Below are positions 21,684-62,255 of a stretch of DNA of 64,000 bases, piece by piece (position 1 is the stretch's first letter; every line of letters starts with the position of its first letter). Position numbers and translations under genes: made by a program. Source of the stretch: Balanoglossus misakiensis (lineage: Eukaryota > Animalia > Hemichordata); NCBI GenBank assembly GCA_040954595.2, contig CM082587.2:7863705-7927704 (forward strand), in the 5' to 3' direction. The notes under the pieces are model-generated. The model ran no database searches. It was not told where the DNA came from and worked only from the letters and a program-made list of their open reading frames with translations.

Positions 21684-21806
21684 CAAGACATCGCATTTTG
21701 AGTTCTATTACCATGCAAATATCAAAATCGACGATAGCAGACTGCGTTTCCTGACCCTCTGTGTGAAAGTCTACCTAAAACACACCGGGGTCTAGATTCC
21801 AGACTA
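21684..21806 (-). mobile_element. Left half (inverted) of a split TAGTCTGG-type MITE
   Basis: Ends in GGGGTCTAGATTCCAGACTA (21787-21806) followed by GTAAGCGTA, the reverse complement of the target site seen empty at 17901-17909; 21684-21710 is an inverted duplicate of 24544-24570. Confidence 0.7.
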
Positions 21807-24346: not shown

Positions 24347-24543
24347 ATACTTCTGACTTGTCAAGCACGTTTGGTTCAATCGATCGCATCACTATGTTTA
24401 TTGTTCAAATTATGACAAGAAATAAACTACTATGAAACATATCCTTGTTGGGACTATTTGATCTGCGATTGAATTCAAATGATTTAATCTTTACTGTAAC
24501 ACTGTTACTGCACTCTGTTTGTCGCGTCATGGTCAAGTACACT

Positions 24544-24674
24544 TAATAGAACTCAAAATGCGATGCCTTGGCAACGAGGTCACCACGCGATCTGGACTCT
24601 GAAGTCGTTCAAGTCAATCACCTTACGTGACACACTAATGATTGGCCGGAGCACGGGGTCTGGATTCCAGACTA
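24544..24674 (+). mobile_element. Right half of the split TAGTCTGG-type MITE
   Basis: Ends in GGGGTCTGGATTCCAGACTA (24655-24674) followed by TACGCTTTAC and then sequence homologous to 17910-18050. Confidence 0.7.
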
Positions 24675-24908
24675 TACGCTTTACATGAACTACGGAAAGA
24701 CTGGTTATGTGTATAAGAGCAGAAATGTACATATTCTTCATATTTATTGGGTAGAAATGGAGTTTGGGTCGTTTTATCCCATTCAATCGAGGGGTGAACT
24801 TGGTATGTGTTTTATAATTGTAGAAGAATATTAAACGACGGTGAAGTGCGCTGGCTAAATGACTCCCTAAGCTATTGGTAGAAAGAAGAAAGAGTCTTGT
24901 CAGACAGT

Positions 24909-29624: not shown

Positions 29625-31128
29625 TCTCTCCTGGGTAAGTTTGTGCTTCGAAATCAATGCATGGTTTACAAACGGTGTGTGTTCAAACAATTATTTTTGT
29701 TTCCGTGTACTGATGTGGCACTGTCTTATTATTTCTGGCAGCTGACCGTGCACAATTTACGCTTAGGGGAGAACCATTTGATGTCTGGGAGTGGGTTGAG
29801 AATTCGGGGGGGGGGGGCATTGTTTGCAGATGGTGACAAGGACACAATATTCTACAATGCCACGAAGGAACTGGTTATCGACTAAAACATTCCATGCAAC
29901 GTACCGTGGCTGAAAAAATGCTGACATGCCCGAATCATCCCCGGGCCCCCTGAAGAAATGATATGGTTCTCCCTTTACTCCGTACTTTTGCACTCAGGTC
30001 AGATTACTTGATCAGTCTCGCTAACTCATCTGCTTTCTTCTTTTAACAGAATTTACATCATCATGCGAGAAAAGGCGACGACGGACGAACAAACAACCAG
30101 ACGCCATTAGAGAATGACCGCGTCCTTTCGTATCTTATACGACGACGTATGCATCCGAAGAAAAGATGAGAACGGTTTTACTGCTGTACTCCGTCTTATT
30201 CACTTGATGCTATAACGCGTTATGCAAACCAAGCAGTCTAGCTGTGCACCCTAGCTGACTTTTCGATAGAACCCAGAATAAAAGCTTGTAATTCACACAC
30301 AAATAGCAAGCCGAAAACAATCCTTAGGAACTTTAAGAGCGAGTGTAAAGTTTTAACTAGGGTACCACTTTGAACTTGTATGTAGTAAACAGTGAAATGT
30401 TGGGCGATTATTTGTTCAAATGCTTTAAAGTTACCAAAATGCTAATAATGTAACACAATTTATACATTGTCCAGATTGGAGCAATGACGTTACTGTATGT
30501 TGATTTAATTGCTGCATGTTAGCTCGTTGTCTACTTTAGTTCTAAGAATGAGCGTACTCTCAGAACATCGGCTTTGAAATACCGTTTTGATGAAGTAATT
30601 TAAGGTCTGACCTCTCCTCCTGGACAGAATAGTAAAAAATGACACCCGTCTTCAACAATTACTATTGTTTTTCACTGTAAGGACATATTCTCTGATACAA
30701 GGGAAAAGATCATGATGGCGTACAATGTCGTTTTTTTTTTCAACGTCAAACGAATGACTTGAGAAGCGAAGACGTGCAAGGTCAAATTTAAATTTTGTAA
30801 TTTTAATACATGACAAGTATAATTCGGGTTCAAGAATGGATTTGTATCATCATATATTTTGATGAATGTTTTTTTTACTCAAGTTATGGTACTACTATAA
30901 GCTATAGGAACAAATAAAATGTAACTTACCGATCCTTCAAGAACGTGTTTAGTTGAATTTCCTTGAAGGTATGTTTGCAAGATTTGCTATTTGTGGTCAG
31001 TTGTGTGCATGGTTTGTGTGTGTGTCACAGTGCCACGACAAAGACTGCACGACATTTTGGACTGTTTTGTGAGAAATACACAATATGCACTTTGTACATA
31101 TTGACACTATTCTGCTTGGGCTAGCAGG

Positions 31129-34100
31129 GCCATAGCTCATGAAAATTATCAAAAAATGACCATTATTCGACTTTCTGAAAGATAAAAAATTCTTCGATTT
31201 TTGATAAAAATCATGGGTTATAGCTCATGAAAATCATTAAAAAATGACAATTTTTCGACTTTTCGAAACATCAAAATTTCTTCACTCTTTGATAAAAATC
31301 ATGGGTTATAGCTCATGAAAATCATCAAAAAATGACAATTTTTCGACTTTCCGAAATATCGAAAATTCTTCATTTTTTGATAAAAATCATGGGTTATAGC
31401 TAATGAAAATCATCAAAAAATGACCATTTTTCGACTTTCCGAAACATCAACAATTCTTCATTTTTTAATAAAATTCATGGGTTATAGGTCATGAAAATCA
31501 TCAAACAATGACCATTTTTCGACTTTCCGAAACATCGAAAATTCTTCATTTTTTGATAAAAATCATGGGTTATAGCCCATGAAAATCATCAAAAAATGAC
31601 CTTTTTTCGACTTTCCGAAACATCGAAAATTCTTCATTTTTTCATAAAAATCATGGGTTATAGCTCAAGAAAATCATCAAAAAATGACCATTTTTCGACT
31701 TTCCGAAACAACAAAAATTCTTCATTTTTTGTTAAAAATCATGGGTTATAGCTCATGAAAATCATCAAAAAATGAACATTTTTCGACTTTCCGAAACATC
31801 AAAAATTCTTCATTCTTTGATAAAAATCATGGGTTATAGCTCATGAAAATTATCAAAAAATGACCATTTTTCGACTTTCCGAAACATCAAAAATTCTTCA
31901 CCCTTTGATAAAAATCATGGGTTATAGCTCAAGAAAATCATCAAAAAATGACCATTTTTCGACTTTCCGAAACAACAAAAATTCTTCATTTTTTGATAAA
32001 AATCATGGGTTATAGCTCATGAAAATCATCAAAAAATGACAATTTTTCGACTTTCCGAAACATCAAAAATTCTTCATTTTTTGATAAAAATAATGGGTTA
32101 TAGCTCATGAAAATCATCAAAAAATGACCATTTTTCGTCTTTCCGAAACATCAAAAATTCTTCATTTTTTGATAAAAATCATGGGTTATAGGTCATGAAA
32201 ATCATCAAAAATGACAATTTTTCGACTTTCCGAAACATCAAAAATTCTTCATTTTTTGATAAAATTCATAGGTTATAGCTCATGAAAATCATCAAAAAAT
32301 GACAATTTTTCGACTTTCCGAAACATCAAAAATTCTTCATTTTTTGATAAAATTCATGGGTTATAGCTCATGAAAATCAACAAATGACAATTTTTCGACT
32401 TTCCGAAACATCAAAAATTCTTCATTTTTTGATAAAATTCATGGGTTATAGCTCATGGAAATCATCAAAAAATGACCATTTTTCGACTTTCCGAAACATC
32501 GAAAATTCTTCATTTTTTGATAAAAATCATGGGTTATAGCTCATGAAAATCATCAAAAAATGAACATTTTTCGACTTTCCGAAACATCGAAAATTCTTCA
32601 TTTTTTGATAAAAATCATGGGTTATAGCTCATGAAAATCATCAAAAAATGACAATTTTTCGACTTTCCGAAACAACAAATATTCTTCATTTTTTGATAAA
32701 AATCATGGGTTATAGCTCATGAAAATCATCAAAAAATGACCATTTTTCGACTTTCCGAAACATCAAAAATTCTTCATTTTTTGATAAAAATCATGGGTTA
32801 TAGCTCACGAAAATCATCAAAAAATGACAATTTTTCGACTTTCCGAAACATCAAAAATTCTTCATTTTTTGATAAAATTCATGGGTTATAGCTCATGGAA
32901 ATCATCAAAAAATGACCATTTTTCGACTTTCCGAAACATCGAAAATTCTTCATTTTTTGATAAAAATCATGGGTTATAGCTCATGAAAATCATCAAAAAA
33001 TGACCATTTTTCGACTTTCCGAAACATCGAAAATTCTTCATTTTTTGATAAAAATCATGGGTTATAGCTCATGAAAATCATCAAAAAATGACAATTTTTC
33101 GACTTTCCGAAACAACAAATATTCTTCATTTTTTGATAAAAATCATGGGTTATAGCTCATGAAAATCATCAAAAAATGACAATTTTTCGACTTTCCGAAA
33201 CATCAAAAATTCTTCATTTTTTGATAAAAATCATGGGTTATAGCTCATGAAAATCATCAAAAAATGACAATTTTTCGACTTTCCGAAACATCAAAAATTC
33301 TTCATTTTTTGATAAAAATCATGGGTTATAGCTCATGAAAATCATCAAAAAATGACAATTTTTCGACTTTCCGAAACATCAAAAATTCTTCATTTTTTGA
33401 TAAAAATCATGGGTTATAGCTCATGAAAATCATCAAAAAATGACAATTTTTCGACTTTCCGAAACATCAAAAATTCTTCATTTTTTGATAAAAATCATAG
33501 GTTATAGCTCATGAAAATCATCAAAAAATGACCATTTTTCGACTTTCCGAAACATCAAAAATTCTTCATTTTTTGATAAAAATCATGGGTTATAGCTCAT
33601 GGAAGTCATCAAAAAATGACCATTTTTCGACTTTCCGAAACATCGAAAATTCTTCATTTTTTGATAAAAATCATGGGTTATAGCTCATTAAAATCATCAA
33701 AAAATGACAATTTTTCGACTTTTCGAAACATCAAAATTTCTTCACTCTTTGATAAAAATCATGGGTTATAGCTCATGAAAATCATCAAAAAATGACCATT
33801 TTTCGACTTTCCGAAACATCAAAAATTCTTCATTTTTTGATAAAAATCATGGGTTATAGCTCATGAAAATCATCAAAAAATGACAATTTTTCGACTTACC
33901 GAAACATCAAAAATTTTTCATTTTTTGATAAAAATCATGGGTTATAGCTCATGGAAGTCATCAAAAAATGACCATTTTTCGACTTTCCGAAACATCGAAA
34001 ATTCTTCATTTTTTGATAAAAATCATGGGTTATAGCTCATGAAAATCATCAAAAAATGACCATTTGTCGTCTTTCCCAAACATCAAAAATTCTTCATTTT

Positions 34101-37100
34101 TTGATAAAAAATCATGGGTTATAGGTCATGAAAATAATCAAAAATGACAATTTTTCGACTTTCCGAAACATCAAAAATTCTTCATTTTTTGATAAAATTC
34201 ATGGGTTATAGCTCATGAAAATCATCAAAAAATGACAATTTTTCGACTTTCCGAAACATCAAAAATTCTTCATTTTTTGATAAAAATCATGGGTTATAGC
34301 TCATGGAAGTCATCAAAAAATGACCATTTTTCGACTTTCCGAAACATCGAAAATTCTTCATTTTTTGATAAAAATCATGGGTTATAGCTCATGAAAATCA
34401 TCAAAAAATGACCATTTTTCGACTTTCCGAAACATCGAAAATTCTTCATTTTTTGATAAAAATCATGGGTTATAGCTCATGAAAATCATCAAAAAATGAC
34501 AATTTTTCGACTTTCCGAAACAACAAAAATTCTTCATTTTTTGATAAAAATCATGGGTTATAGCTCATGAAAATCATCAAAAAATGACAATTTTTCGACT
34601 TTCCGAAACATCAAAAATTCTTCATTTTTTGATAAAAATCATGGGTTATAGCTCATGGAAGTCATCAAAAAATGACAATTTTTCGACTTTCCGAAACATC
34701 GAAAATTCTTCATTTTTTGATAAAAATCATGGGTTATAGCTCATGAAAATCATCAAAAAATGACCATTTTTCGACTTTCCGAAATATCGAAAATTCTTCA
34801 TTTTTTGATAAAAATCATGGGTTATAGCTCATGAAAATCATCAAAAAATGACAATTTTTCGACTTTCCGAAACAACAAAAATTCTTCATTTTTTGATAAA
34901 AATCATGGGTTATAGCTCATGAAAATCATCAAAAAATGACAATTTTTCGACTTTCCGAAACATCAAAAATTCTTCATTTTTTGATAAAAATCATAGGTTA
35001 TAGCTCATGAAAATCATCAAAAAATGACCATTTTTCGACTTTCCGAAACATCGAAAATTCTTCATTTTTTGATAAAAATCATGGGTTATAGCTCATGAAA
35101 ATCATCAAAAAATGACAATTTTTTGACTTTCCGAAACATCGAAAATTCTTCATTTTTTGATAAAAATCATGGGTTATAGCTCATGAAAATCATCAAAAAA
35201 TGACCATTTTTCGACTTTCCGAAATATCAAAAATCTTCATTTTTTGATCAAATTTCAAATTCATGGGTTATAGCTCATGAAAATCATCAAAAAATGACCA
35301 TTTGCCGACTTTCCGAAACATCAAAAATTCTTCATTTTTTTATAAAATTCATGGGTTATAGCTCAAGAAAATCATCAAATGACCATTTTTCGTCTTTCCG
35401 AAACATCAAAAATTCTTCATTTTTTGATAAAAATCATGGGTTATAGCTCATGAAAATTATCAAAAAATGACAATTTTTCGACTTTCCGAAACATCAAAAA
35501 TTCTTCATTTTTTGATAAAATTCATGGGTTATAGCTCATGAAAATCATCAAAAAATGACAATTTTGGACTTTCCGAAACATCAAAAATTCTTCATTTTTT
35601 GATAAAATTCATGGGTTATAGCTCATGAAAATCATCAAAAAATAACCATTTGCCGACTTTCCGAAACATCAAAAATTCTTCATTGTTTGATAAAAATCAT
35701 GGGTTATAGCTCATGAAAATCATCAAAAATGACCATTTTTCGACTTTCCGAAAAATCAAAATTTCTTCGATTTTTGATAAAAATCATGGGTTATAGCTCA
35801 TGAAAATCATGAAAAAATGACCATTTTTCGACTTCCCGAAATATCAAAATTTCGTCATTTTTTGATAAAAATCATGGGTTATAGCTCATGAAAATTATCA
35901 AAAAATGACCATTTTTCGACTTTCCGAAAAATCAAAATTTCTTCGATTTTTGATAAAAATCATGGGTTATAGCTCATGAAAATCATGAAAAAATGACCAT
36001 TTTTCGACTTTCCGAAACATCAAAATTTCGTCAATTTTTGATAAAAATCATGGGTTATAGCTCATGAAAATCACCAAAAAATGACCATTTTTCGACTTTC
36101 CGAAACATCAAAATTTCTTCGATTTTTGATAAAAATCATGGGTTATAGCTCATGAAAATCACCAAAAAATGACAATTTTTTGACTTTCCGAAACATCGAA
36201 AATTCTTCATTGTTTGATAAAAATCATGGGTTATAGCTCATGAAAATCATCAAAAATGACCATTTTTCGACTTTCCGAAAAATCAAAATTTCTTCGATTT
36301 TTGATAAAAATCATGGGTTATAGCTCATGAAAATCATGAAAAAATGACCATTTTTCGACTTCCCGAAATATCAAAATTTCGTCATTTTTTGATAAAAATC
36401 ATGGGTTATAGCTCATGAAAATCATGAAAAAATGACCATTTTTCGACTTCCCGAAATATCAAAAATTCTTCATTTTTTGATAAAATTCATGGGTTATAGC
36501 TCATGAAAATTATCAAAAAATGACCATTTTTCGACTTTCCGAAACATCAAAAATTCTTCATTTTTTGATAAAATTCATGGGTTATAGCTCAAGAAAATCA
36601 TCAAAAAATGACCATTTTTCGACTTTCCGAAACAACAAAAATTCTTCATTTTTTGATAAAAATCATGGGTTATAGCTCATGAAAATCATCAAAAAATGAC
36701 CATTTTGTCGAATTTCCGGAACATCAAAAATTCTTCATTTTTTGATAAAAATCATGGGTTATAGCTCATAAAAATCATCAAAAAATGACCATTTTTCGAC
36801 TTTCCGAAACATCGAAAATTCTTCATTTTTTCATAAAAATCATGGGTTATAGCTCATGAAAATCATCAAAAAATGACAATTTTTTGACTTTCCGAAACAT
36901 CGAAAATTCTTCATTTTTTCATAAAAATCATGGGTTATAGCTCATGAAAATCATCAAAAAATGACAATTTTTTGACTTTCCGAAACATCGAAAATTCTTC
37001 ATTTTTTGATAAAAATCATGGGTTATAGCTCATGAAAATCATCAAAAAATGACCATTTTTCGACTTTCCGAAATATCAAAAATCTTCATTTTTTGATCAA

Positions 37101-40100
37101 ATTTCAAATTCATGGGTTATAGCTCATGAAAATCATCAAAAAATGACCATTTGCCGACTTTCCGAAACATCAAAAATTCTTCATTTTTTTATAAAATTCA
37201 TGGGTTATAGCTCAAGAAAATCATCAAATGACCATTTTTCGTCTTTCCGAAACATCAAAAATTCTTCATTTTTTGATAAAAATCATGGGTTATAGCTCAT
37301 GAAAATCATCAAAAAATGACAATTTTTCGACTTTCCGAAACATCAAAAATTCTTCATTTTTTGATAAAATTCATGGGTTATAGCTCATGAAAATCATCAA
37401 AAAATGACAATTTTTGGACTTTCCGAAACATCAAAAATTCTTCATTTTTTGATAAAATTCATGGGTTATAGCTCATGAAAATCATCAAAAAATAACCATT
37501 TGCCGACTTTCCGAAACATCAAAAATTCTTCATTGTTTGATAAAAATCATGGGTTATAGCTCATGAAAATTATCAAAAAATGACCATTTTTCGACTTTCC
37601 GAAACATCAAAAATTCTTCATTTTTTGATAAAATTCATGGGTTATAGCTCAAGAAAATCATCAAAAAATGACCATTTTTCGACTTTCCGAAACAACAAAA
37701 ATTCTTCATTTTTTGATAAAAATCATGGGTTATAGCTCATGAAAATCATCAAAAAATGACCATTTTGTCGAATTTCCGGAACATCAAAAATTCTTCATTT
37801 TTTGATAAAAATCATGGGTTATAGCTCATAAAAATCATCAAAAAATGACCATTTTTCGACTTTCCGAAACATCAAAAATTCTTCATTTTTTGATAAAAAT
37901 CATGGGTTATAGCTCATGAAAATCATCAAAAAATGATAATTTTTCGACTTTCCGAAACATCAAAAATTCTTCATTTTTTGATAAAAATCATGGGTTATAG
38001 CTCATGAAAATCATCAAAAAATGATAATTTTTCGACTTTCCGAAACATCAAAAATTCTTCATTTTTTGATAAAATTTATAGGTTATAGCTCATGAAAATC
38101 ATCAAAAAATGATAATTTTTCGACTTTCCGAAACATCAAAAATTCTTCATTTTTTGATAAAAATCATGGGTTATAGCTCATGAAAATCATCAAAAAATGA
38201 CCATTTTTCGACTTTCCGAAACATCAAAAATTCTTCATTTTTTGATAAAAATCATGGGTTATAGCTCATGAAAATCATCAAAAAATGATAATTTTTCGAC
38301 TTTCCGAAACATCAAAAATTCTTCATTTTTTGATAAAATTCATAGGTTATAGCTCATAAAAATCATCAAAAAATGACCATTTTTCGACTTTCCGAAACAT
38401 CAACAATTCTTCATTTTTTGATAAAAATCATGGGTTATAGCTCATGAAAATCTTCAAAAAATGACAATTTTTCGACTTACCGAAACATCAAAAATTCTTC
38501 ATTTTTTGATAAAAATCATGGGTTATAGCTCATGGAAATCATCAAAAAATGACCATTTTTCGACTTTCCGAAACATCGAAAATTTTTGATAAAAATCATG
38601 GGTTATAGCTCATGAAAATCATCAAAAAATGACCATTTTTCGACTTTCCGAAACATCGAAAATTCTTCATTTTTTGATAAAAATCATGGGTTATAGCTCA
38701 TGAAAATCATTAAAAAATGACCATTTTTCGACTTTCCGAAACATCGAAAATTCTTCATTTTTTGATAAAAATCATGGGTTATAGCTCATGAAAATCATCA
38801 AAAAATGACCATTTTTCGACTTTCCGAAACATCGAAAATTCTTCATTTTTTGATAAAAATCATGGGTTATAGCTCATGAAAATCATCAAAAAATGATAAT
38901 TTTTCGACTTTCCGAAACATCAAAAATTCTTCATTTTTTGATAAAATTCATAGGTTATAGCTCATGAAAATCATCAAAAAATGATAATTTTTCGACTTTC
39001 CGAAACATCAAAAATTCTTCATTTTTTGATAAAAATCATGGGTTATAGCTCATGAAAATCATCAAAAAATGACTATTTTTCGACTTTCCGAAACATCAAA
39101 AATTCTTCATTTTTTGATAAAAATCATGGGTTATAGCTCATGAAAATCATCAAAAAATGATAATTTTTCGACTTTCCGAAACATCAAAAATTCTTCATTT
39201 TTTGATAAAATTCATAGGTTATAGCTCATAAAAATCATCAAAAAATGACCATTTTTCGACTTTCCGAAACATCAACAATTCTTCATTTTTTGATAAAAAT
39301 CATGGGTTATAGCTCATGAAAATCTTCAAAAAATGACAATTTTTCGACTTACCGAAACATCAAAAATTCTTCATTTTTTGATAAAAATCATGGGTTATAG
39401 CTCATGGAAATCATCAAAAAATGACCATTTTTCGACTTTCCGAAACATCGAAAATTCTTCATTTTTTGATAAAAATCATGGGTTATAGCTCATGAAAATC
39501 ATCAAAAAATGACCATTTTTCGACTTTCCGAAACATCGAAAATTCTTCATTTTTTGATAAAAATCATGGGTTATAGCTCATGAAAATCATCAAAAAATGA
39601 CAATTTTTCGACTTTCCGAAACATCGAAAATTCTTCATTTTTTGATAAAAATCATGGGTTATAGCTCATGAAAATCATCAAAAAATGACCATTTTTCGAC
39701 TTTCCGAAACATCGAAAATTCTTCATTTTTTGATAAAAATCATGGGTTATAGCTCATGAAAATCATCAAAAAATGACCATTTTTCGACTTTCCGAAACAT
39801 CGAAAATTCTTCATTTTTTGATAAAAATCATGGGTTATAGCTCATGAAAATCATCAAAAAATGACAATTTTTCGACTTTCCGAAACATCGAAAATTCTTC
39901 ATTTTTTGATAAAAATCATGGGTTATAGCTCATGAAAATCATCAAAAAATGACCATTTTTCGACTTTCCGAAACATCGAAAATTCTTCATTTTTTGATAA
40001 AAATCATGGGTTATAGCTCATGAAAATCATCAAAAAATGATAATTTTTCGACTTTTCGAAACATCAAAAATTCTTCATTTTTTGATAAAATTCATGGGTT

Positions 40101-43100: not shown

Positions 43101-46100
43101 AAAATGACCATTTTTCGACTTTCCGAAACATCAAAAATTCTTCATTTTTTGATAAAAATCATGGGTTATAGCTCATGAAAATCATCAAAAAATGACCATT
43201 TTTCGACTTTCCGAAACATCAAAAATTCTTCATTTTTTGATAAAAATCATGGGTTATAGCTCATGAAAATCATCAAAAAATGACCATTTTTCGACTTTCC
43301 GAAACATCAAAAATTCTTCATTTTTTGATAAAAATCATGGGTTATAGCTCATGAAAATCATCAAAAAATGATAATTTTTCGACTTTCTGAAACATCAAAA
43401 ATTCTTCATTTTTTGATAAAAATCATGGGTTATAGCTCATGAAAATCTTCAAGAAATGACAATTTTTCGACTTACCGAAACATCAAAAATTCTTCATTTT
43501 TTGATAAAAATCATGGGTTATAGCTCATGGAAATCATCAAAAAATGACCATTTTTCAACTTTCCGAAACATCGAAAATTCTTCATTTTTTGATAAAAATC
43601 ATGGGTTATAGCTCATGAAAATCATCAAAAAATGACCATTTTTCGACTTTCCGAAACATCAAAAATTCTTCATTTTTTGATAAAAATAATGGGTTATAGC
43701 TCATAAAAATCATCAAAAAATGACCATTTTTCGACTTTCCGAAACATCAAAAATTCTTCATTTTTTGATAAAAATCATGGGTTATAGCTCATGAAAATTA
43801 TCAAAAAATGACCATTTTTCGACTTTCCGAAACATCAAAAATTCTTCATTTTTTTTATAAAATTCATGGGTTATAGCTAAAGAAAATCATCAAAAAATGA
43901 CCATTTTTCGACTTTCCGAAACATCAAAAATTCTTCATTTTTTGATAAAATTCATTGGTTATAGCTTGAAAATGATAATTTTTCGACTTTCCGAAACATC
44001 AAAAATTCTTCATTTTTTGATAAAAATCATGGGTTATAGCTCAAGAAAATCATCAAAAAATGACCATTTTTCGACTTTCCGAAACATCAAAAATTCTTCA
44101 TTTTTTTATAAAATTCATGGGTTATAGCTCAAGAAAATCATCAAAAAATGACCATTTTTCGACTTTCCGAAACATCAAAAATTCTTCATTTTTTGATAAA
44201 AATCATGGGTTATAGCTCATGAAAATCATCAAAAAATGACCATTTTTCGACTTTCCGAAACAATCAAAAATTTTTCATTTTTTGATAAAAATCATGGGTT
44301 ATAGCTCATGAAAATCATCAAAAAATGACCATTTTTCGACTTTCCGAAACATCAAAAATTCTGCATTTTTTGATAAAAATCATGGGTTATAGCTCATGAA
44401 AATCATCAAAAAATGATAATTTATCGACTTTCCGAAACATCAAAAATTCTTCATTTTTTGATAAAAATCATGGGTTATAGCTCATGAAAATCTTCAAAAA
44501 ATGACAATTTTTCGACTTACCGAAACATCAAAAATTCTTCATTTTTTGATAAAAAATCATGGGTTATAGCTCATGGAAATCATCAAAAAATGACCATTTT
44601 TCGACTTTCCGAAACATCAAAAATTCTTCATTTTTTTATAAAATTCATGGGTTATAGCTCAAGAAAATCATCAAAAAATGACCATTTTTCGACTTTCCGA
44701 AACATCAAAAATTCTTCATTTTTTGATAAAAATCATGGGTTATAGCTCATGAAAATCATCAAAAAATGACCATTTTTCGACTTTCCGAAACATCAAAAAT
44801 TCTTCATTTTTTGATAAAAATCATGGGTTATAGCTCATGAATATCATCAAAAAATGACCATTTTTCGACTTTCCGAAACATCAAAAATTCTTCATTTTTT
44901 GATAAAAATCATGGGTTATAGCTCATGAAAATCATCAAAAAATGATCATTTTTCGACTTTCCGAAACATCAAAAATTCTTCATTTTTTGATAAAAATCAT
45001 GGGTTATAGCTCATGAAAATCATCAAAAAATGATAATTTTTCGACTTTCTGAAACATCAAAAATTCTTCATTTTTTGATAAAAATCATGGGTTATAGCTC
45101 ATGAAAATCTTCAAAAAATGACAATTTTTCGACTTACCGAAACATCGAAAATTCTTCATTTCTTGATAAAAATCATGGGTTATAGCTCATGGAAATCATC
45201 AAAAAATGACCATTTTTCAACTTTCCGAAACATCGAAAATTCTTCATTTTTTGATAAAAATCATGGGTTATAGCTCATGAAAATCATCAAAAAATGACCA
45301 TTTTTCGACTTTCCGAAACATCGAAAATTCTTCATTTTTTGATAAAAATCATGGGTTATAGCTCATGAAAATCATCAAAAAATGATAATTTTTCGACTTT
45401 CCGAAACATCAAAAATTCTTCATTTTTTTTGAAAAAAATCATGGGTTATAGCTCATGAAAATCATCAAAAAATGACCATTTTTCGACTTTCCGAAACATC
45501 AAAAATTCTTCATTTTTTGATAAAAATCATGGGTTATAGCTCATGAAAATCATCAAAAAATGACCATTTTTCGAATATCCGAAACATCAAAAATTCTTCA
45601 TTTTTTGATAAAAATCATGGGTTATAGCTCAAGAAAATCATCAAAAAATGACCATTTTTCGACTTTCCGAAACATCAAAAATTCTTCATTTTTTGATAAA
45701 AATAATGGGTTATAGCTCATGAAAATCATCAAAAAATGACAATTTTTCGACTTTCCGAAACATCAAAAATTCTTCATTTTTTGATAAAATTCATGGGTTA
45801 TAGCTCATGAAAATCATCAAAAAATGACAATTTTTCGACTTTCCGAAACATCAAAAATTCTTCATTTTTTGATAAAATTCATGGGTTATAGCTCATGAAA
45901 ATCATCAAAAAATGACCATTTTTCGACTTTCCGAAACATCAAAAATTCTTCAATGTTTGATAAAAATCATGGGTTATAGCTCATGAAAATCATCAAAAAA
46001 TGACCATTTTTCGACTTTCCGAAACATCAAAAATTCTTCATTTTTTGATAAAAATCATGGGTTATAGCTCAAGAAAATAATCAAAAAATGACCATTTTTC

Positions 46101-46569
46101 GACTTTCCGAAACAACAAAAATTCTTCATTTTTTGATAAAAATCATGGGTTATAGCTCATGAAAATCATCAAAAAATGACCAGTTTTCGACTTTCCGAAA
46201 CATCAAAAATTCTTCATTTTTTGATAAAAATCATGGGTTATAGCTCATGAAAATCATCAAAAAATGACCATTTTTCGACTTTCCGAAACATCAAAAATTC
46301 TTCACTTTTTGAAAAAAAATCATGCGTTATAGCTCATGAAAATCATCAAAAAATGACCATTTTTCGACTTTCCGAACCGAAACATCAAAAATTCTTCATT
46401 TTTTAAATAAAAATCATGGGTTATAGCCTAAGAAAATCATCAAAAAATGACCATTTTTCGACTTTCCGAAACATCAAAAATCCTTCATTTTTTGATAAAA
46501 TTCATGGCTTATAGCTCATGAAAATCATCAAAAAATGACCATTTTTCGACTTTCCGAAACATCAAAAAT
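31129..46569 (+). repeat. Satellite array, 88-bp AT-rich monomer, ~175 copies
   Basis: Consensus ATAGCTCATGAAAATCATCAAAAAATGACCATTTTTCGACTTTCCGAAACATCAAAAATTCTTCATTTTTTGATAAAAATCATGGGTT; period 88 (e.g. 37821 to 37909). Confidence 0.98.
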
Positions 46570-49500
46570 AGGTAAAAGGGAAGCCTTCCTGAACCCTTCG
46601 CCATCACGATGTGTTCTCGAACAAGTCGGAAATGTACCGCACTATATTGCAGCATAACTACAATGATCTTATTTGCACCGCAGCGGTGCGAAGTGTTATT
46701 TGCACCGCAGCGGTGCAAATAAGAGTTTACACCGCTGCGGTGCAAATAAGAGTTCCCTGCACCGCAATGATCTGACCGTTCTTTATTCACTCCTCGGCGA
46801 CAAAAACGTTTTATTACGGCCCAAATAATGACTTTTTCGCTCCTTGGTTGGTCATGCGGACGGAAAGACACGGTTTTAGCGAGTTTATCTTTCTCTTTCC
46901 TGAGCACTACGTATTCAGACTTGCCCAAGTGAACCGCGACATAAAATGACCAAGTTTCCCTGCATGTTTCTTATACCCGTCAGTTAAAAAACGCAGCGTA
47001 GATATTGAAATGAATTGGATTTATGAAAATGATTAAAATTACAATGATAATGTCGTTAAAAGTCCTCAAAAAAAAAAATAGAAAAAAGTGGTCTCGAACC
47101 AACATCAGTTGACACCTTGAGGTAAAAGTCAAGCCTTCCTGAACCCTTCGCCATCACGATGTGTTCTCAAAAAAGTCGGAAATTTACCGCACTATGTTGC
47201 AGCATAACAAAAATGATCTTATTTGCACCGCAGCGGTGCGAAGTGTTATTTGCACCGCAGCGGTGCAAATAAGAGTTTACACCGCTGCGGTGCAAATAAG
47301 AGTTCCCTGCACCGCAACGATCTGACCGTTCTTTATTCACTCCTCGGCGACAAAAACGTTTTATTACGGCCCAAATAATGACTTTTTCGCTCCTTGGTTG
47401 GTCATGCGGACGGAACGACACGGTTTTAGCGAGATTATCTTTCTCTTTCCTGAGCACTACGTATTCAGACTTGCCCAAGTGAACCGCGACAAAAAATGAC
47501 CAAGTTTCCCTGCATGTTTCTTATACCCGACAGTTAAAAAACGCAGCGTAGATATTGAAAAGAATTGGATTTATGAAAATGATTAAAATTACAATGATAA
47601 TGTCGTTAAAAGTTCTCACAAAAAAAAAAATAGAAAAAAGTGGTCTCGAACCAACATCAGTTGACACCTTGAGGTAAAAGTCAAGCCTTCCTGAACCCTT
47701 CGCCATCACGATGTGTTCTCAAAAAAGTCGGAAATTTACCGCACTATATTGCAGCATAACTACAATGATCTTATTTGCACCGCAGCGGTGCGAAGTGTTA
47801 TTTGCACCGCAGCGGTGCAAATAAGAGTTTACACCGCTGCGGTGCAAATAAGAGTTCCCTGCACCGCAACGATCTGACCGTTCTTTATTCACTCCTCGGC
47901 GACAAAAACGTTTTATTACGGCCCAAATAATGACTTTTTCGCTCCTTGGTTGGTCATGCGGACGGAAAGACACGGTTTTAGCGAGATTATCTTTCTCTTT
48001 CCTGAGCACTACGTATTCAGACTTGCCCAAGTGAACCGCGACAAAAAAATGACCAAGTTTCCCTGCATGTTTCTTATACCCGACAGTTAAAAAACGCAGC
48101 GTAGATATTGAAATGAATTGGATTTATGAAAATGATTAAAATTACAATGATAATGTCGTTAAAAGTTCTCACACAAAAAGAAAAGAAAAAAACGTGGTCT
48201 CGAACCAACATCAGTTGACACCTTGAGGTAAAAGTCAAGCCTTCCTGAACCCTTCGCCATCACGATGTGTTCTCAAAAAAGTCGGAAATTTACCGCACTA
48301 TGTTGCAGCATAACAAAAATGATCTTATTTGCACCGCAGCGGTGCGAAGTGTTATTTGCACCGCAGCGGTGCAAATAAGAGTTTACACCGCTGCGGTGCA
48401 AATAAGAGTTCCCTGCACCGCAACTATCTGACCGTTCTTTATTCACTCCTCGGCGACAAAAACGTTTTATTACGGCCCAAATAATGACTTTTTCGCTCCT
48501 TGGTTGGTCATGCGGACGGAAAGACACGGTTTTAGCGAGATTATCTTTCTCTTTCCTGAGCACTACGTATTCAGACTTGCCCAAGTGAACCGCGACAAAA
48601 AAATGACCAAGTTTCCCTGCATGTTTCTTATACCCGACAGTTAAAAAACGCAGCGTAGATATTGAAATGAATTGGATTTATGAAAATGATTAAAATTACA
48701 ATGATAATGTCGTTAAAAGTTCTCACAAAAAAAAAATAGAAAAAAGTGGTCTCGAACCAACATCAGTTGACACCTTGAGGTAAAAGTCAAGCCTTCCTGA
48801 ACCCTTCGCCATCACGATGTGTTCTCAAAAAAGTCGGAAATTTACCGCACTATATTGCAGCATAACTACAATGATCTTATTTGCACCGCAGCGGTGCGAA
48901 GTGTTATTTGCACCGCAGCGGTGCAAATAAGAGTTTACACCGCTGCGGTGCAAATAAGAGTTCCCTGCACCGCAACGATCTGACCGTTCTTTATTCACTC
49001 CTCGGCGACAAAAACGTTTTATTACGGCCCAAATAATGAATTTTTCGCTCCTTGGTTGGTCATGCGGACGGAAAGACACGGTTTTAGCGAGTTTATCTTT
49101 CTCTTTCCTGAGCACTACGTATTCAGACTTGCCCAAGTGAACCGCGACAAAAAAATGACCAAGTTTCCCTGCATGTTTCTTATACCCGACAGTTAAAAAA
49201 CGCAGCGTAGATATTGAAATGAATTGGATTTATGAAAATGATTAAAATTACAATGATAATGTCGTTAAAAGTCCTCAAAAAAAAATAGAAAAAAGTGGTC
49301 TCGAACCAACATCAGTTGACACCTTGAGGTAAAAGTCAAGCCTTCCTGAACCCTTCGCCATCACGATGTGTTCTCAAAAAAGTCGGAAATTTACCGCACT
49401 ATGTTGCAGCATAACAAAAATGATCTTATTTGCACCGCAGCGGTGCGAAGTGTTATTTGCACCGCAGCGGTGCAAATAAGAGTTTACACCGCTGCGGTGC

Positions 49501-52500
49501 AAATAAGAGTTCCCTGCACCGCAACGATCTGACCGTTCTTTATTCACTCCTCGGCGACTAAAACGTTTTATTACGGCCCAAATAATGACTTTTTCGCTCC
49601 TTGGTTGGTCATGCGGACGGAAAGACACGGTTTTAGCGAGATTATCTTTCTCTTTCCTGAGCACTACGTATTCAGACTTGCCCAAGTGAACCGCGACAAA
49701 AAAATGACCAAGTTTCCCTGCATGTTTCTTATACCCGACAGTTAAAAAACGCAGCGTAGATATTGAAATGAATTGGATTTATGAAAATGATTAAAATTAC
49801 AATGATAATGTCGTTAAAAGTTCTCACACAAAAAAAAAGAAAAAAACGTGGTCTCGAACCAACATCAGTTGACACCTTGAGGTAAAAGTCAAGCCTTCCT
49901 GAACCCTTCGCCATCACGATGTGTTCTCAAAAAAGTCGGAAATTTACCGCACTATGTTGCAGCATAACAAAAATGATCTTATTTGCACCGCAGCGGTGCG
50001 AAGTGTTATTTGCACCGCAGCGGTGCAAATAAGAGTTTACACCGCTGCGGTGCAAATAAGAGTTCCCTGCACCGCAACTATCTGACCGTTCTTTATTCAC
50101 TCCTCGGCGACAAAAACGTTTTATTACGGCCCAAATAATGACTTTTTCGCTCCTTGGTTGGTCATGCGGACGGAAAGACACGGTTTTAGCGAGATTATCT
50201 TTCTCTTTCCTGAGCACTACGTATTCAGACTTGCCCAAGTGAACCGCGACAAAAAAATGACCAAGTTTCCCTGCATGTTTCTTATACCCGACAGTTAAAA
50301 AACGCAGCGTAGATATTGAAATGAATTGGATTTATGAAAATGATTAAAATTACAATGATAATGTCGTTAAAAGTTCTCACAAAAAAAAAATAGAAAAAAG
50401 TGGTCTCGAACCAACATCAGTTGACACCTTGAGGTAAAAGTCAAGCCTTCCTGAACCCTTCGCCATCACGATGTGTTCTCAAAAAAGTCGGAAATTTACC
50501 GCACTATATTGCAGCATAACTACAATGATCTTATTTGCACCGCAGCGGTGCGAAGTGTTATTTGCACCGCAGCGGTGCAAATAAGAGTTTACACCGCTGC
50601 GGTGCAAATAAGAGTTCCCTGCACCGCAACGATCTGACCGTTCTTTATTCACTCCTCGGCGACAAAAACGTTTTATTACGGCCCAAATAATGAATTTTTC
50701 GCTCCTTGGTTGGTCATGCGGACGGAAAGACACGGTTTTAGCGAGTTTATCTTTCTCTTTCCTGAGCACTACGTATTCAGACTTGCCCAAGTGAACCGCG
50801 ACAAAAAAATGACCAAGTTTCCCTGCATGTTTCTTATACCCGACAGTTAAAAAACGCAGTGTAGATATTGAAATGAATTGGATTTATGAAAATGATTAAA
50901 ATTACAATGATAATGTCGTTAAAAGTCCTCAAAAAAAAATAGAAAAAAGTGGTCTCGAACCAACATCAGTTGACACCTTGAGGTAAAAGTCAAGCCTTCC
51001 TGAACCCTTCGCCATCACGATGTGTTCTCAAAAAAGTCGGAAATTTACCGCACTATGTTGCAGCATAACAAAAATGATCTTATTTGCACCGCAGCGGTGC
51101 GAAGTGTTATTTGCACCGCAGCGGTGCAAATAAGAGTTTACACCGCTGCGGTGCAAATAAGAGTTCCCTGCACCGCAACTATCTGACCGTTCTTTATTCA
51201 CTCCTCGGCGACAAAAACGTTTTATTACGGCCCAAATAATGACTTTTTCGCTCCTTGGTTGGTCATGCGGACGGAAAGACACGGTTTTAGCGAGATTATC
51301 TTTCTCTTTCCTGAGCACTACGTATTCAGACTTGCCCAAGTGAACCGCGACAAAAAAATGACCAAGTTTCCCTGCATGTTTCTTATACCCGACAGTTAAA
51401 AAACGCAGCGTAGATATTGAAATGAATTGGATTTATGAAAATGATTAAAATTACAATAATAATGTCGTTAAAAGTTCTCACAAAAAAAAAAATAGAAAAA
51501 AGTGGTCTCGAACCAACATCAGTTGACACCTTGAGGTAAAAGTCAAGCCTTCCTGAACCCTTCGCCATCACGATGTGTTCTCAAAAAAGTCGGAAATTTA
51601 CCGCACTATATTGCAGCATAACTACAATGATCTTATTTGCACCGCAGCGGTGCGAAGTGTTATTTGCACCGCAGCGGTGCAAATAAGAGTTTACACCGCT
51701 GCGGTGCAAATAAGAGTTCCCTGCACCGCAACGATCTGACCGTTCTTTATTCACTCCTCGGCGACAAAAACGTTTTATTACGGCCCAAATAATGAATTTT
51801 TCGCTCCTTGGTTGGTCATGCGGACGGAAAGACACGGTTTTAGCGAGTTTATCTTTCTCTTTCCTGAGCACTACGTATTCAGACTTGCCCAAGTGAACCG
51901 CGACAAAAAAATGACCAAGTTTCCCTGCATGTTTCTTATACCCGACAGTTAAAAAACACAGCGTAGATATTGAAATGAATTGGATTTATGAAAATGATCA
52001 AAATTACAATGATAATGTCGTTAAAAGTTCTCACACACACAAAAAAAGAAAAAAACGTGGTCTCGAACCAACATCAGTTGACACCTTGAGGTAAAAGTCA
52101 AGCCTTCCTGAACCCTTCGCCATCACGATGTGTTCTCAAAAAAGTCGGAAATTTACCGCACTATGTTGCAGCATAACAAAAATGATCTTATTTGCACCGC
52201 AGCGGTGCGAAGTGTTATTTGCACCGCAGCGGTGCAAATAAGAGTTTACACCGCTGCGGTGCAAATAAGAGTTCCCTGCACCGCAACTATCTGACCGTTC
52301 TTTATTCACTCCTCGGCGACAAAAACGTTTTATTACGGCCCAAATAATGAATTTTTCGCTCCTTGGTTGGTCATGCGGACGGAAAGACACGGTTTTAGCG
52401 AGATTATCTTTCTCTTTCCTGAGCACTACGTATTCAGACTTGCCCAAGTGAACCGCGACAAAAAAATGACCAAGTTTCCCTGCATGTTTCTTATACCCGA

Positions 52501-54473
52501 CAGTTAAAAAACGCAGCGTAGATATTGAAATGAATTGGATTTATGAAAATGATTAAAATTACAATAATAATGTCGTTAAAAGTTCTCACAAAAAAAAAAA
52601 TAGAAAAAAGTGGTCTCGAACCAACATCAGTTGACACCTTGAGGTAAAAGTCAAGCCTTCCTGAACCCTTCGCCATCACGATGTGTTCTCAAAAAAGTCG
52701 GAAATTTACCGCACTATATTGCAGCATAACTACAATGATCTTATTTGCACCGCAGCGGTGCGAAGTGTTATTTGCACCGCAGCGGTGCAAATAAGAGTTT
52801 AAACCGCTGCGGTGCAAATAAGAGTTCCCTGCATCGCAACGATCTGACCGTTCTTTATTCACTCCTCGGCGACAAAAACGTTTTATTACGGCCCAAATAA
52901 TGACTTTTTCGCTCCTTGGTTGGTCATGCGGACGGAAAGACACGGTTTTAGCGAGTTTATCTTTCTCTTTCCTGAGCACTACGTATTCAGTCTTGCCCAA
53001 GTGAACCGCGACAAAAAAATGACCAAGTTTCCCTGCATGTTTCTTATACCCGACAGTTAAAAAACACAGCGTAGATATTGAAATGAATTGGATTTATGAA
53101 AATGATCAAAATTACAATGATAATGTCGTTAAAAGTTCTCACACACACAAAAAAAGAAAAAAACGTGGTCTCGAACCAACATCAGTTGACACCTTGAGGT
53201 AAAAGTCAAGCCTTCCTGAACCCTTCGCCATCACGATGTGTTCTCAAAAAAGTCGGAAATTTACCGCACTATGTTGCAGCATAACAAAAATGATCTTATT
53301 TGCACCGCAGCGGTGCGAAGTGTTATTTGCACCGCAGCGGTGCAAATAAGAGTTTACACCGCTGCGGTGCAAATAAGAGTTCCCTGCACCGCAACTATCT
53401 GACCGTTCTTTATTCACTCCTCGGCGACAAAAACGTTTTATTACGGCCCAAATAATGACTTTTTCGCTCCTTGGTTGGTCATGCGGACGGAAAGACACGG
53501 TTTTAGCGAGTTTATCTTTCTCTTTCCTGAGCACTACGTATTCAGACTTGCCCAAGTGAACCGCGACAAAAAAATGACCAAGTTTCCCTGCATGTTTCTT
53601 ATACCCGACAGTTAAAAAACGCAGCCTAGATATTGAAATGAATTGGATTTATGAAAATGATTAAAATTACAATGATAATGTCGTTAAAAGTTCTCACCAA
53701 AAAAAAAAATAGAAAAAAAGTGGTCTCGAACCAATATCAGTTGACACCTTGAGGTAAAAAGTCAAGCCTTCCTGAACCCTTCGCCATCACGATGTGTTCT
53801 CAAAAAAGTCGGAAATTTACCGCACTATATTGCAGCATAACTACGATTATCTTATTTGCACCGCAGCGGTGCGAAGTGTTATTTGCACCGCAGCGGTGCA
53901 AATAAGAGTTTACACCGCTGCGGTGCAAATAAGAGTTCCCTGCACCGCAACGATCTGACCGTTCTTTATTCACTCCTCGGCGACAAAAACGTTTTATTAC
54001 GGCCCAAATAATGACTTTTTCGCTCCTTGGTTGGTCATGCGGACGGAAAAACACGGTTTTAGCGAGTTTATCGTTCTCTTTCCTGAGCACTACGTATTCA
54101 GACTTGCCCAAGTGAACCGCGACAAAAAAATGACCAAGTTTCCCTGCATGTTTCTTATACCCGACAGTTAAAAAACGCAGCGTAGATATTGAAATGAATT
54201 GGATTATGAAAATGATTAAAATTACAATGATCATGTCGTTAAAAGTTCTCAAAAAAAAAGAAAAGAAAAAAAAGTGGTCTCGAACCAACATTAGTTGACA
54301 CCTTGAGGTAAAAGTCAAGCCTTCCTGAACCCTTCGCTATCACGATGTGTTCTCGAAAAAGTCGGATATTTACCGCAGTTTATGTATATTGCAGCATAAC
54401 TACAATGATCTTATTTGCACCGCAGCGGTGCGAACTCTTATTTGCACCGCAGCGGTGAGGGCGCTTGGTCCCC
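46570..54473 (+). repeat. Tandem array of ~553-bp monomer, ~14.3 copies
   Basis: AGGTAAAAG landmark from 46570 to 54306 in 14 steps (mean ~552.6 bp); source of the repeated 103-aa pseudo-ORFs; right end GAGGGCGCTTGGTCCCC|TAA. Confidence 0.98.
47082..47160 (-). ncRNA. tRNA-like Pol III cassette (first of 14, one per 553-bp monomer); not a complete tRNA
   Basis: Minus strand ATCGTGA-TGGCGAAGGG (A-box-like)-TTCAGGAAGG-CTTGA-CTTTTACC-TCAAG (anticodon-like stem-loop)-GTGTCAACTGATGTT-GGTTCGAGACC (exact GGTTCGANNCC B box)-AC-TTTTTT (terminator-like). The 3' acceptor strand is absent. Confidence 0.6.
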
Positions 54474-54474
54474 T

Positions 54475-55018
54475 AATGACCATTTTTCGACTTTCCGAAA
54501 CATCAAAAATTCTTCATTTTTTGATAAAAATAATGGGTTATAGCTCATGAAAATCGTCAAAAGATGACCATTTTTCGACTTTCCGAAACATCAAAAATTC
54601 TTCATTTTTTGATAAAAATCATGGGTTATAGCTCATGAAAATCAACAAATGACCATCATTCGACTTTCCGAAACATCAAAATTTCTTCATTTTTTGAAAA
54701 GAATCATGGGTTATAGCTCATGAAAATTATCCAAAAATGACAATTTTTCCACTTTGCGAAAGTTCAAAATTTCTTCATTTTTTGAAAAAAATCATGGGTT
54801 ATAGCTCATGAAAATCATCCAAAAAAGACAATTTTTCGACTGTGCGGAACTTCAAAAATTCTTCATTTTTTGAAAAAAAATCATGGGTTATAGCTCATGA
54901 AAATCATCAAAATATGACCATTTGTCGACTTTCAGACATTTCAAAAATTCGTCATTTTTGGAGGCTTTCCGAAACATCAAAATTTCGTCATTTTTGATAA
55001 AAAATCCTGGGTTATAGC
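54475..55018 (+). repeat. Short right-hand array of the 88-bp satellite (~6 monomers, diverging outward)
   Basis: Same monomer and same orientation as 31129-46569; outer copies carry more substitutions. Confidence 0.95.
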
Positions 55019-56256
55019 AGCAGGGTAGACACTTTTCACCTCTCCTAGCAATGTTGGCTGACCCGGTACTCAGCATTTCCAAAACAAGGTGACCTCCACA
55101 CCACCCAATTCCAAAGCAGGGTGTCCCCCCCCCCCCCCCCCCCGTATAATCCAACCCCTGATGAAGAACTGACCAGTCCCTTACGTAGTATGACGACAGG
55201 CACGGCGAATGCCATAGAGGCTAAGGATGAGGATGAGGCTAACTTCACGTACGTGTTGTGTGTGTAGCGTGCATTGATTCTAAGTGACTCTCTAAGTTAA
55301 TGGTAGAAAGTGTTTTGCCAGATAGTCACGTTTTGTCAGACAGTCGCCGCACGTTTTGTAGCCGAACCTGTCTCTGTCTCTGAAAATCCATTGACGGCGC
55401 CCTCTGGAGTGGCAATCTTCAGCGATGTTGTGATTCTTGTGGAGTGGGCCATATTTCATAATTCTAGAAATAATTTGTCAATTTAAGGGGTTAAATAATT
55501 TCATATCTATATTCCGTTGTTTGAGCTAGCATTATTGTATGTTGGCATATTTTTTTATAGGACGGATTAAAATTACGCCGGTCGTCGAAAATACAAAACT
55601 ATTTTCAGTTACTTGAAAATCCGAAATTGAACCCGAATCCGAGTTTAATTTCACCAGCGGTGAGAGTGAGAGTGACGGTCTGAGGGGAGGGGTTAGGTGA
55701 GGGTTTGCTTCTCAAGAAGGCTGAAATTGAACGCTTTCGAAAGTATCTGTAGTAGAAGAAATTTAAGGAATTCCTGGAGAACGGATGACTATACAGGTAT
55801 GACCACTGCTGCTTTGATTTACAGTTTATTGAGATTTTTTTCCCCCGTAGATCAACCGGTGGTTTGTGAACTGATCTACGTGATGTTATTAACCCTCTTA
55901 CGTCCCGGTCCGTGATTGAATGCCGTGGTACATATTTACGGGATATTTAGCTGTTTAACCAGTTAATTGAATGGAAAACTCTCCATGATTTTGGTGATAA
56001 AGTAGTCAGGTAGGCTAAAAAAAAATAACTGATTTTGTTGTGTTCTTATGTCAAGGAACACAGGCCCAATGATAGGGAAATCCCCCAAGCCTATTCACGT
56101 GATCAGTAGTATTCATTAGTCTTTGTGTTGGAATATTCCTTCCGTCGTTTAGTGTGGACACTAGGTACAGCTGCGTACCACAGCTAACACAGACACTGAT
56201 AATTTTTCCCCTTCAAGGTCATCAAGCCAAGGTCCTAACTCTACCATTGGTACACA

Positions 56257-60707: not shown

Positions 60708-60892
60708 CTTACAAAAACATTCTGTAGACATCTATAGAATTCTGTAACCTTTTGAATATCTAAAGAAGTTCATAGAATTTCTATGGACATCTATAGATTT
60801 CTGTGTAGTTGTGTACCATTTTTCTGTTGAATTCTTTGGAAGCATCAATTACCTACAGAATGCTATAGGACTCTATAGAATGTTTTTGTAAG
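60708..60892. mobile_element. MITE with internal CTATAGAA-type repeats immediately after the TRAF stop codon
   Basis: TIR CTTACAAAAACATTCT / AGAATGTTTTTGTAAG. Confidence 0.75.
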
Positions 60893-62069: not shown

Positions 62070-62255
62070 TACCGTTAAAGTCATTTTATAAGTCGCATTG
62101 GTATTATAAGTCGCACCCCTTCTTTAAAAGACTTGTTTGGGAGGAGATTTTAAGGAAATGAATACAACAGAACATTGGTATTATAAGTCGCACCCCCTTT
62201 TCGGCACACACTGTCACTCAAAAAAGGTGCGTCTTATAAAATGACTTTAACGGTA
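62070..62255. mobile_element. Tc1/mariner-superfamily-type MITE (TA TSD)
   Basis: TA|CCGTTAAAGTCATTTTATAAGTCGCA...TGCGTCTTATAAAATGACTTTAACGG|TA, with internal TATAAGTCGCA repeats. Confidence 0.85.

What the first reader, a model, noticed from the sequence alone, without database searches (positions are those of the whole stretch)
31123..55024. 24-kb satellite block looks like one inserted element whose ends are the satellite monomer
Seen: sharp boundaries between two ordinary genes, AGCAGG (AGCAGGG if the boundary shifts 1 nt) directly on both sides, and the two ends cut on either side of the monomer's symmetry axis so they read as imperfect TIRs although both arrays run in the same direction. 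Established: foldback- and Helentron-type elements carry internal tandem repeats that seed satellites. Inference: a non-autonomous transposon made almost wholly of a palindromic repeat that expanded in place to 24 kb. A 6-7-bp match can be chance, so this is a hypothesis.
Basis: partly seen in the sequence, partly recalled or inferred. Interest (0 to 1): 0.8.

Follow-up and report, generated by a model that had tools for sequence, protein, structure and literature searches.

The report
Nested satellite array, short flanking duplication
In what is likely an acorn worm, a 24-kb block between two genes is a head-to-tail array of an abundant 88-base repeat with an unrelated 552-base repeat array nested inside it; it most likely began as a short piece of the repeat patched into a DNA break and likely grew in place, rather than arriving as a jumping gene.

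Summary
The anatomy is real. AGCAGG(G) flanks a 23.9-kb block of about 182 same-direction copies of an imperfectly palindromic 88-mer. A 6-bp duplication is more than chance (0.1-0.5% with boundary slack).

The transposon reading is weaker than it looks:
- A third of the block is an unrelated nested 552-bp array.
- The 'TIRs' match 16/27, less than two consensus monomers cut at the same phases (20/27) and less than TIR elements in this window (26-30/30).
- Both junctions overlap the monomer's only GGG and TAGC, so microhomology alone could put the ends at the axis.
- No other locus appears to share the left terminal 31-mer. No shown loose-end row lies at the predicted end phases (18 of 149 rows shown: inconclusive).
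- No empty allele was seen in the single sample available.

Best reading (0.62): a satellite seed captured by repair or circle insertion, then expanded in place, as proposed for dispersed alpha satellite and Rsp-like. Mobile 'palindrome-as-TIR' element: 0.2. An unchecked scan note reports an 87-bp palindromic foldback array elsewhere in this genome; sequence look-ups found no look-alike of this block. No genome or relative could be fetched.

The parts
31123..31129 (+). Left copy of the flanking duplication AGCAGG(G); its GGG (31127-31129) is also in register with the monomer (possible microhomology)
31129..46569 (+). Main array of the 88-bp, 27% GC, imperfectly palindromic monomer: about 175.7 copies head to tail, with multi-monomer block duplications (923, 1849, 872 bp); first monomer the most diverged
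46570..54457 (+). Nested unrelated tandem array: 14 units of 549-556 bp plus a 152-bp partial unit; each unit holds a 27-bp subrepeat hairpin; first and last units diverged
54458..54474 (.). 17-nt filler of unknown origin at the right junction of the nested array; no second match in the window at up to 4 mismatches
54475..55018 (+). Right stub of the 88-mer array: about 6 diverged copies, same direction. It resumes with 36 bp that repeat the end of the left array (a 36-bp duplication, equivalently a 52-bp loss). The last monomer has a 36-bp internal duplication.
55019..55025 (+). Right copy of the flanking duplication AGCAGG(G), directly after the monomer's TAGC
55115..55122 (+). Third AGCAGGG(T), 96 bp further right; the + strand of the window holds only these three AGCAGGG
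28182..29622 (+). Left neighbour: predicted spliced gene for a Thr/Ala-rich, Cys-containing repeat protein with a hydrophobic C-terminus; no Pfam hit; apparent frameshift near 28905
56257..60687 (+). Right neighbour: TRAF2-like gene (RING exon from ATG 56257, MATH exons to 60687), 1.2 kb from the block; best homologs from acorn worms

Best explanation
The block is a head-to-tail array of an abundant 88-bp palindromic satellite with a nested 552-bp array, and it most likely arose without a transposase, when a short piece or circle of the satellite was likely captured at a DNA break and then likely expanded in place. Shown: the anatomy, the 6-7-bp duplication, the overlap of both junctions with the monomer's only GGG and TAGC, diverged edges, and block duplications inside. 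Inferred steps: (1) A staggered break or stalled fork at the AGCAGGG site was joined to satellite DNA through 3-4 bp of microhomology. The monomer is 73% A+T and carries these words only at its axis, so the junctions would fall at the axis. (2) Fill-in duplicated 6-7 bp of target. (3) Unequal exchange or slippage amplified and homogenised the interior, leaving older variants at both edges. (4) A second repair-type event placed the 552-bp unit near the right end, with a 36-bp duplication and a 17-nt filler, and it expanded too.
For: GGG occurs once in the monomer (phase 4) and TAGC once (phase 10), both at the axis and both at a junction. End match is 16/27 against 20/27 for consensus, and 19/30 against 26-30/30 for three TIR elements in the same window. 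The odd GGGCC start also occurs after monomer sequence in one X3 contig, so it is a family variant and not a special terminus (record 17 and its loose-end row). The X1 contig across the left junction has single-locus depth (20.5) and ends at 31161, the first 31-mer shared with other monomers; inferred: no other locus has this exact end. One X3 contig leaves the monomer at phase 81 into 255 unlike letters, off the axis. The family is abundant: 5,807 X1 and 10,127 X2 contigs lie on 115 bp of consensus. Edge monomers carry family-wide variants. The nested array has repair-type junctions. Precedent: 2-10-bp duplications at most dispersed alpha-satellite insertions, no role found for transposons (PMC7719264, passages); microhomology, 32-bp duplications and fillers at Rsp-like insertions into 1.688 (PMC7403614, passages).
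Against: A plain microhomology join at AGC would leave one AGC at the right junction; there are two, so an extra 3-bp slip or a blunt join is needed. A perfect 6-bp duplication with exactly symmetric ends is also what a transposase would leave; by my arithmetic some symmetric reading arises by chance about 4 times in 88. An unchecked note reports opposed arrays of an 87-bp palindromic repeat in this genome (e1-10617120). No empty site was seen.
Confidence: 0.62

Rival explanations
1. One reading: a non-autonomous cut-and-paste element whose ends are the palindromic monomer itself. A transposase reads the two halves of the axis as inverted ends, moves the same-direction array as a unit and leaves a 6-bp TSD.
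For: The 6-bp duplication is perfect and beats chance. The 6-bp reading is exactly symmetric, and 6 of the outermost 8 bases pair. The monomer folds as a hairpin. MITE-derived arrays are known (Xstir/miDNA4 in PMC12628747, passages). An unchecked note reports opposed 87-bp palindromic arrays in this genome (e1-10617120).
Against: The ends pair worse than consensus (16 vs 20 of 27). The target's GG(G) must match the monomer in register by chance (about 1%, my arithmetic base frequencies). No shared left terminal 31-mer (inferred). No shown loose-end row at the predicted phases 43253 and 43260 (18 of 149 rows). No transposase: the longest stop-free frame is 178 aa, with no Pfam hit in the two longest ORFs.
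Confidence: 0.2
2. The duplication is chance or local slippage, and the block is an old array whose true ends (for instance transposon end modules) have been lost.
For: Only AGCA (4 bp) is free of overlap with the monomer. A third AGCAGGG lies 96 bp to the right, so the word recurs locally. Two different 6-bp readings exist.
Against: Chance of 6 bp or more is 0.1-1.2% depending on slack. Both boundaries are base-sharp, and no end-module remnants were found.
Confidence: 0.1
3. The monomer is an old 80-bp MITE plus an 8-bp target duplication, and this is the locus where repeated insertion founded the array, so the block starts and ends with the 8-mer.
For: The block begins and ends with the same 8-mer phase (6-13), with 2 mismatches. 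The family variant at phase 14 (T>C) improves the inverted match of the 80-mer's ends. Tandems that share a TSD are known (PMC5932611, passages; coral CMITE arrays, PMC2872659, abstract and Discussion).
Against: It leaves the outer AGCAGG duplication unexplained. A small euchromatic array is an unlikely founder of a family with thousands of variant contigs. No solo 80-bp copy lies in the window.
Confidence: 0.08

Closest known systems
Dispersed euchromatic alpha-satellite repeats (Feliciello et al. 2020, PMC7719264; passages)
   Same: Satellite monomers in unique DNA with short (2-10 bp) duplications at the junctions; insertion through short homology, probably from circles, is proposed, without transposons.
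   Different: Those are mostly short arrays in primates. Here a 16-kb palindromic array with a nested second satellite, and no orthologous empty site checked.
Rsp-like inserted into 1.688 satellite, Drosophila simulans clade (Sproul et al. 2020, PMC7403614; passages)
   Same: One satellite nested in another; microhomology, about 32-36-bp duplications or deletions and short unannotated fillers at junctions; local expansion.
   Different: There, junction types recur at many loci and circles were shown. Here one locus; the nested unit is 552 bp and shows no clear microhomology at its junctions.
Foldback element Tetris (Dias et al. 2014, PMC4079207; passages)
   Same: Non-coding, tandem repeats that grow to satellite size, flanking duplication.
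   Different: Tetris has long true TIRs with a flanking domain, a middle domain and 8-10-bp TSDs. Here there is no flanking domain, all monomers face one way, and the duplication is 6-7 bp.
MITE-derived satellites: Xstir and miDNA4 of Xenopus (review PMC12628747, passages); coral CMITE arrays (PMC2872659)
   Same: Short inverted-repeat unit in tandem; possible origin of the 88-mer itself.
   Different: Those have recognisable MITE ends around the array or whole MITEs in tandem (piggyBac-type termini in CMITE). No such ends were found here.

Membership tests
Foldback transposon (Tetris type) | Long inverted terminal arms, so arrays face each other | tested here: not met
   178 of 178 monomer motif matches on one strand
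Foldback transposon (Tetris type) | Non-repeat flanking domain in the TIRs | tested here: not met
   Monomer sequence runs up to the duplication at both ends
Foldback transposon (Tetris type) | 8-10-bp TSD | tested here: not met
   Longest exact duplication over the boundary placements tried is 7 bp
Non-autonomous TIR element / MITE | Target-site duplication | tested here: inconclusive
   6-7-bp duplication is present and beats chance but overlaps monomer sequence, and no empty site was seen
Non-autonomous TIR element / MITE | Terminal inverted repeats better matched than internal sequence | tested here: not met
   16/27 against 20/27 for consensus monomers; 19/30 against 26-30/30 for other TIR elements in the window
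Non-autonomous TIR element / MITE | Dispersed copies with the same ends and different TSDs | tested here: inconclusive
   Left terminal 31-mers lie in a single-depth contig; no shown loose-end row at the predicted phases, but 131 of 149 rows hidden; no genome available
Non-autonomous TIR element / MITE | Autonomous partner with the same ends | not testable with these tools
   No genome held; genome index unreachable
Helentron / HINE with central repeats | Conserved non-repeat end modules with subterminal inverted repeats and a 3' hairpin, T-rich site without TSD (features recalled, not from a call) | tested here: not met
   No end modules; flanks are G/C-rich and duplicated
Dispersed satellite array inserted by short homology | Abundant tandem family elsewhere in the genome | tested here: met
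   5,807 and 10,127 contigs on 115 bp of consensus, against single contigs on the flank; not a copy number
Dispersed satellite array inserted by short homology | Short duplication and microhomology at junctions | tested here: met
   GGG and TAGC/AGC shared between monomer and flank; 6-7-bp duplication
Dispersed satellite array inserted by short homology | Varied end phases among arrays; satellite present on extrachromosomal circles | tested here: inconclusive
   One off-axis junction in X3; circles not testable here
Crypton-like origin of the 552-bp unit (recalled lead) | 4-6-bp terminal direct repeats and a tyrosine recombinase partner (PMC3212892, passages) | not testable with these tools
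   Unit is non-coding (no Pfam hit in two ORFs); no other copies could be fetched

The most novel reading that the evidence does not exclude
A satellite whose palindromic monomer is itself a transposase substrate: any same-direction array cut 4 bp beyond the symmetry axis at both ends reads as a TIR element, so whole arrays (here with a nested second satellite) can be moved or seeded by cut-and-paste transposition with a 6-bp TSD, without dedicated ends.
Probability: 0.18. Interest if true: 0.75.

Novelty: new member of a known kind. Interest (0 to 1): 0.3.

Why it matters
On the likely reading this is a tidy but ordinary case of satellite spread into gene-rich DNA: a seed with a short junction duplication, expansion in place, and a second satellite nested inside, 1.2 kb upstream of a TRAF-like start codon. 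It adds a major satellite, probably of an acorn worm, with base-sharp junctions. If the ends proved conserved across arrays, it would bear on an open question, how satellites reach new loci: the repeat unit would be its own transposon end. One look at the assembly would settle this.

Tried and rejected
- No whole genome is held for this window, and the genome index did not complete. No other haplotype, relative or array could be fetched.
- Empty allele: only one sample is served (X1-X3, one study, possibly the source of the window). The left junction contig has depth 20.5, against 13.1 + 10 for two variant contigs and 21.3 nearby. I read this as both haplotypes carrying the junction.
- X2 has no cover at 30850-31124; the tool says a hole proves nothing, so I did not use it.
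- A 25-nt monomer pattern gave 0 hits in metagenome and viral contigs. An 18-nt pattern gave 96 loci; none matches more than 30 bp of the monomer, so I treated them as chance.
- Rfam over 46000-48300: 20 matches, all below gathering score, hairpin look-alikes.
- Scan look-ups by sequence found nothing.
- The 88 bp between the second and third AGCAGGGT is unrelated to the monomer (score 18, shuffles mean 15.7).
- An element extending to 55160 with CAGGG-type ends was rejected: its flanks show no duplication (by eye).
- The nested array as a TIR element was rejected: 13/30, only TAGG/CCTA pair.
- The joined flanks show no spanning hairpin or repeat.
Full report
ANATOMY. The block runs from 31129 to 55018 (23,890 bp). 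It holds about 175.7 copies of an 88-bp monomer (31129-46569), 14 units plus a 152-bp part of an unrelated 552-bp repeat (46570-54457), a 17-nt filler, and about 6 more monomers (54475-55018). The 88-mer makes up 67% and the 552-bp array 33%, so the block is not 'almost wholly' one repeat. All 178 matches of a monomer motif are on the + strand. The monomer is 27% GC and an imperfect palindrome: 62/88 against its reverse complement, where 2000 shuffles gave a mean of 41 and a maximum of 52; as single-stranded DNA it folds with z -3.2. The longest stop-free frame in the block is 178 aa, and the two longest ORFs have no Pfam hit. The right neighbour is a TRAF2-like gene whose five best homologs come from acorn worms, up to 70% identity, so the host is likely a hemichordate. 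The left neighbour has no Pfam hit in two exons tested and an apparent frameshift.

THE DUPLICATION. AGCAGG lies at 31123-31128 and 55019-55024. Among 20,000 random flank pairs, a duplication of 6 bp or more occurred in 0.08% without slack, 0.5% with 3 nt of slack per side and 1.2% with 5 nt. It is therefore probably real. It is not clean, however. GGG at 31127-31129 is in register with the monomer's GGG, and the right end stops on the monomer's TAGC. Readings with duplications of 4, 5, 6 or 7 bp all end at 55018, and only the 6-bp one is symmetric about the axis. A separate 6-bp reading (TAGCAG, element 31128-55014) also exists. GGG and TAGC each occur once in the monomer, both at the axis. 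A G/C-rich target joined through microhomology to this A/T-rich repeat would therefore land at the axis with no need for a transposase (inference).

THE 'TIRs'. The real ends pair at 16 of 27 positions. Two consensus monomers cut at the same phases pair at 20 of 27, and each end matches the forward consensus better (24 and 22 of 27). Three small inverted-repeat elements in the same window pair at 26-30 of 30; the block pairs at 19 of 30. The TIR-like look is thus the monomer's own palindromy. The unusual start GGGCC also follows ordinary monomer sequence in one X3 contig (record 17), so it is a family variant rather than a special end.

FAMILY-LEVEL EVIDENCE. Three runs of one sample and one study were served; it may be the source of the window. 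On 115 bp of consensus, 5,807, 10,127 and 34 contigs were laid, which shows an abundant, variable family but is no copy number. The X1 contig across the left junction is identical to the window over 30805-31161, at depth 20.5; two variant contigs nearby have 13.1 and 10, and a shared one 21.3. I infer that both haplotypes carry the junction. The contig ends exactly where the first 31-mer shared with other monomers begins, so no other locus appears to have this exact left end. This assumes 31-letter words and would miss siblings that differ by one base. On the left end, 48 of 56 partly laid X1 contigs and 80 of 99 X2 contigs fall in shown rows, none at 31127-31131. On the consensus, none of the 18 shown loose-end rows lies at the predicted phases (43253, 43260); they hold 106 of 303, 232 of 412 and 10 of 11 partly laid contigs, and 131 rows were hidden. 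One X3 contig leaves the monomer at phase 81 into 255 unlike letters. Two rows (8 and 13 contigs) read as monomers lacking about 10 bp across the axis, a hint that the hairpin tip is fragile (my reading).

GROWTH IN PLACE. Interior monomers differ from consensus at 2.4 positions on average (maximum 6, n = 168). Five edge monomers differ at 12 (3 of them flank bases), 6, 6, 9 and 8, and several differences are variants listed as common in the family. Block duplications of 923, 1849 and 872 bp lie inside. The 552-bp array also has its first and last units most diverged. Around it the 88-mer repeats 36 bp (equivalently loses 52 bp), and a 17-nt filler sits at the right junction. This fits a short seed whose ends stayed put while the interior was amplified by unequal exchange, with a later repair-type insertion of a second repeat (inference).

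MECHANISM. Most likely (0.62): capture of satellite DNA, linear or circular, at a break through short homology, duplication of 6-7 bp by fill-in, and expansion in place. Its weak point is the doubled AGC at the right junction, which needs a slip or a blunt join. The transposon reading (0.2) explains the duplication and the symmetry together. It needs the GGG overlap to be chance (about 1%, my arithmetic), and it lacks siblings and a transposase. Chance or eroded ends get 0.1; a tandem-MITE founder locus gets 0.08. These odds are my judgement from the counts above, not a computed result.

COMPARISON. Dispersed alpha-satellite insertions mostly carry 2-10-bp duplications, and the authors found no role for transposons (PMC7719264, passages). 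Rsp-like insertions into 1.688 show microhomology, 32-bp duplications, 36-bp deletions and fillers (PMC7403614, passages). Tribolium euchromatic arrays show no favoured end phase (10.1101/2023.04.24.538079, passages; its supplements are closed). Tetris has true opposed arms, a flanking domain and 8-10-bp TSDs (PMC4079207, passages); these features are not met here. MITE-derived arrays are reviewed in PMC12628747 (passages) and described in PMC2872659 (abstract and Discussion); tandems sharing a TSD in PMC5932611 (passages). Eight searches listed no paper on this satellite, or on a same-direction array moved through its own palindromic monomer. The library lacks most subscription papers, and I read passages only.

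VERDICT. New member of a known kind; interest 0.3. The bold case has probability 0.18 and would deserve 0.75. The missing assembly-wide end survey would decide between them.

Noticed in passing
window 15180-24830: A roughly 3.4-kb unit is present three times (one inverted, two direct, 85-99% alike). Each holds an exon-like stretch for a small acidic Cys-rich protein without a Pfam hit.
   Followed up: partly
window 14360-14920: A fold-back element of about 550 bp: arms 30/30 identical at the ends, inner arms of 77 nt around a 19-nt loop.
   Followed up: partly
window 60708-60892 and 62070-62255: Two small MITE-like elements with 26/30 and 27/30 matched ends.
   Followed up: partly
window 28797-29224: The second repeat exon of the left gene changes frame near 28905: an assembly indel or a broken allele.
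   Followed up: no
window 47120-47671: The 552-bp unit has a 27-bp subrepeat forming a 42-bp-arm hairpin. It recalls non-autonomous Crypton-type repeats from memory only; untested.
   Followed up: partly
window 54458-54475: The filler ends in CCTA and the nested array starts with TAGG (46569), a 4-bp inverted match. The filler may be the stub of another transposon end; too short to call.
   Followed up: partly
window 55019-55160: The right flank holds AGCAGGGT twice, 96 bp apart, then a C run; possibly the remnant of a small repeat.
   Followed up: partly
window 2943-3242 and 12530-12931: Exons for a Roadblock/LC7 protein and a PAN domain; C-type-lectin-like exons at 8.8-11.4 kb by eye, without a Pfam hit in the one tested.
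   Followed up: partly
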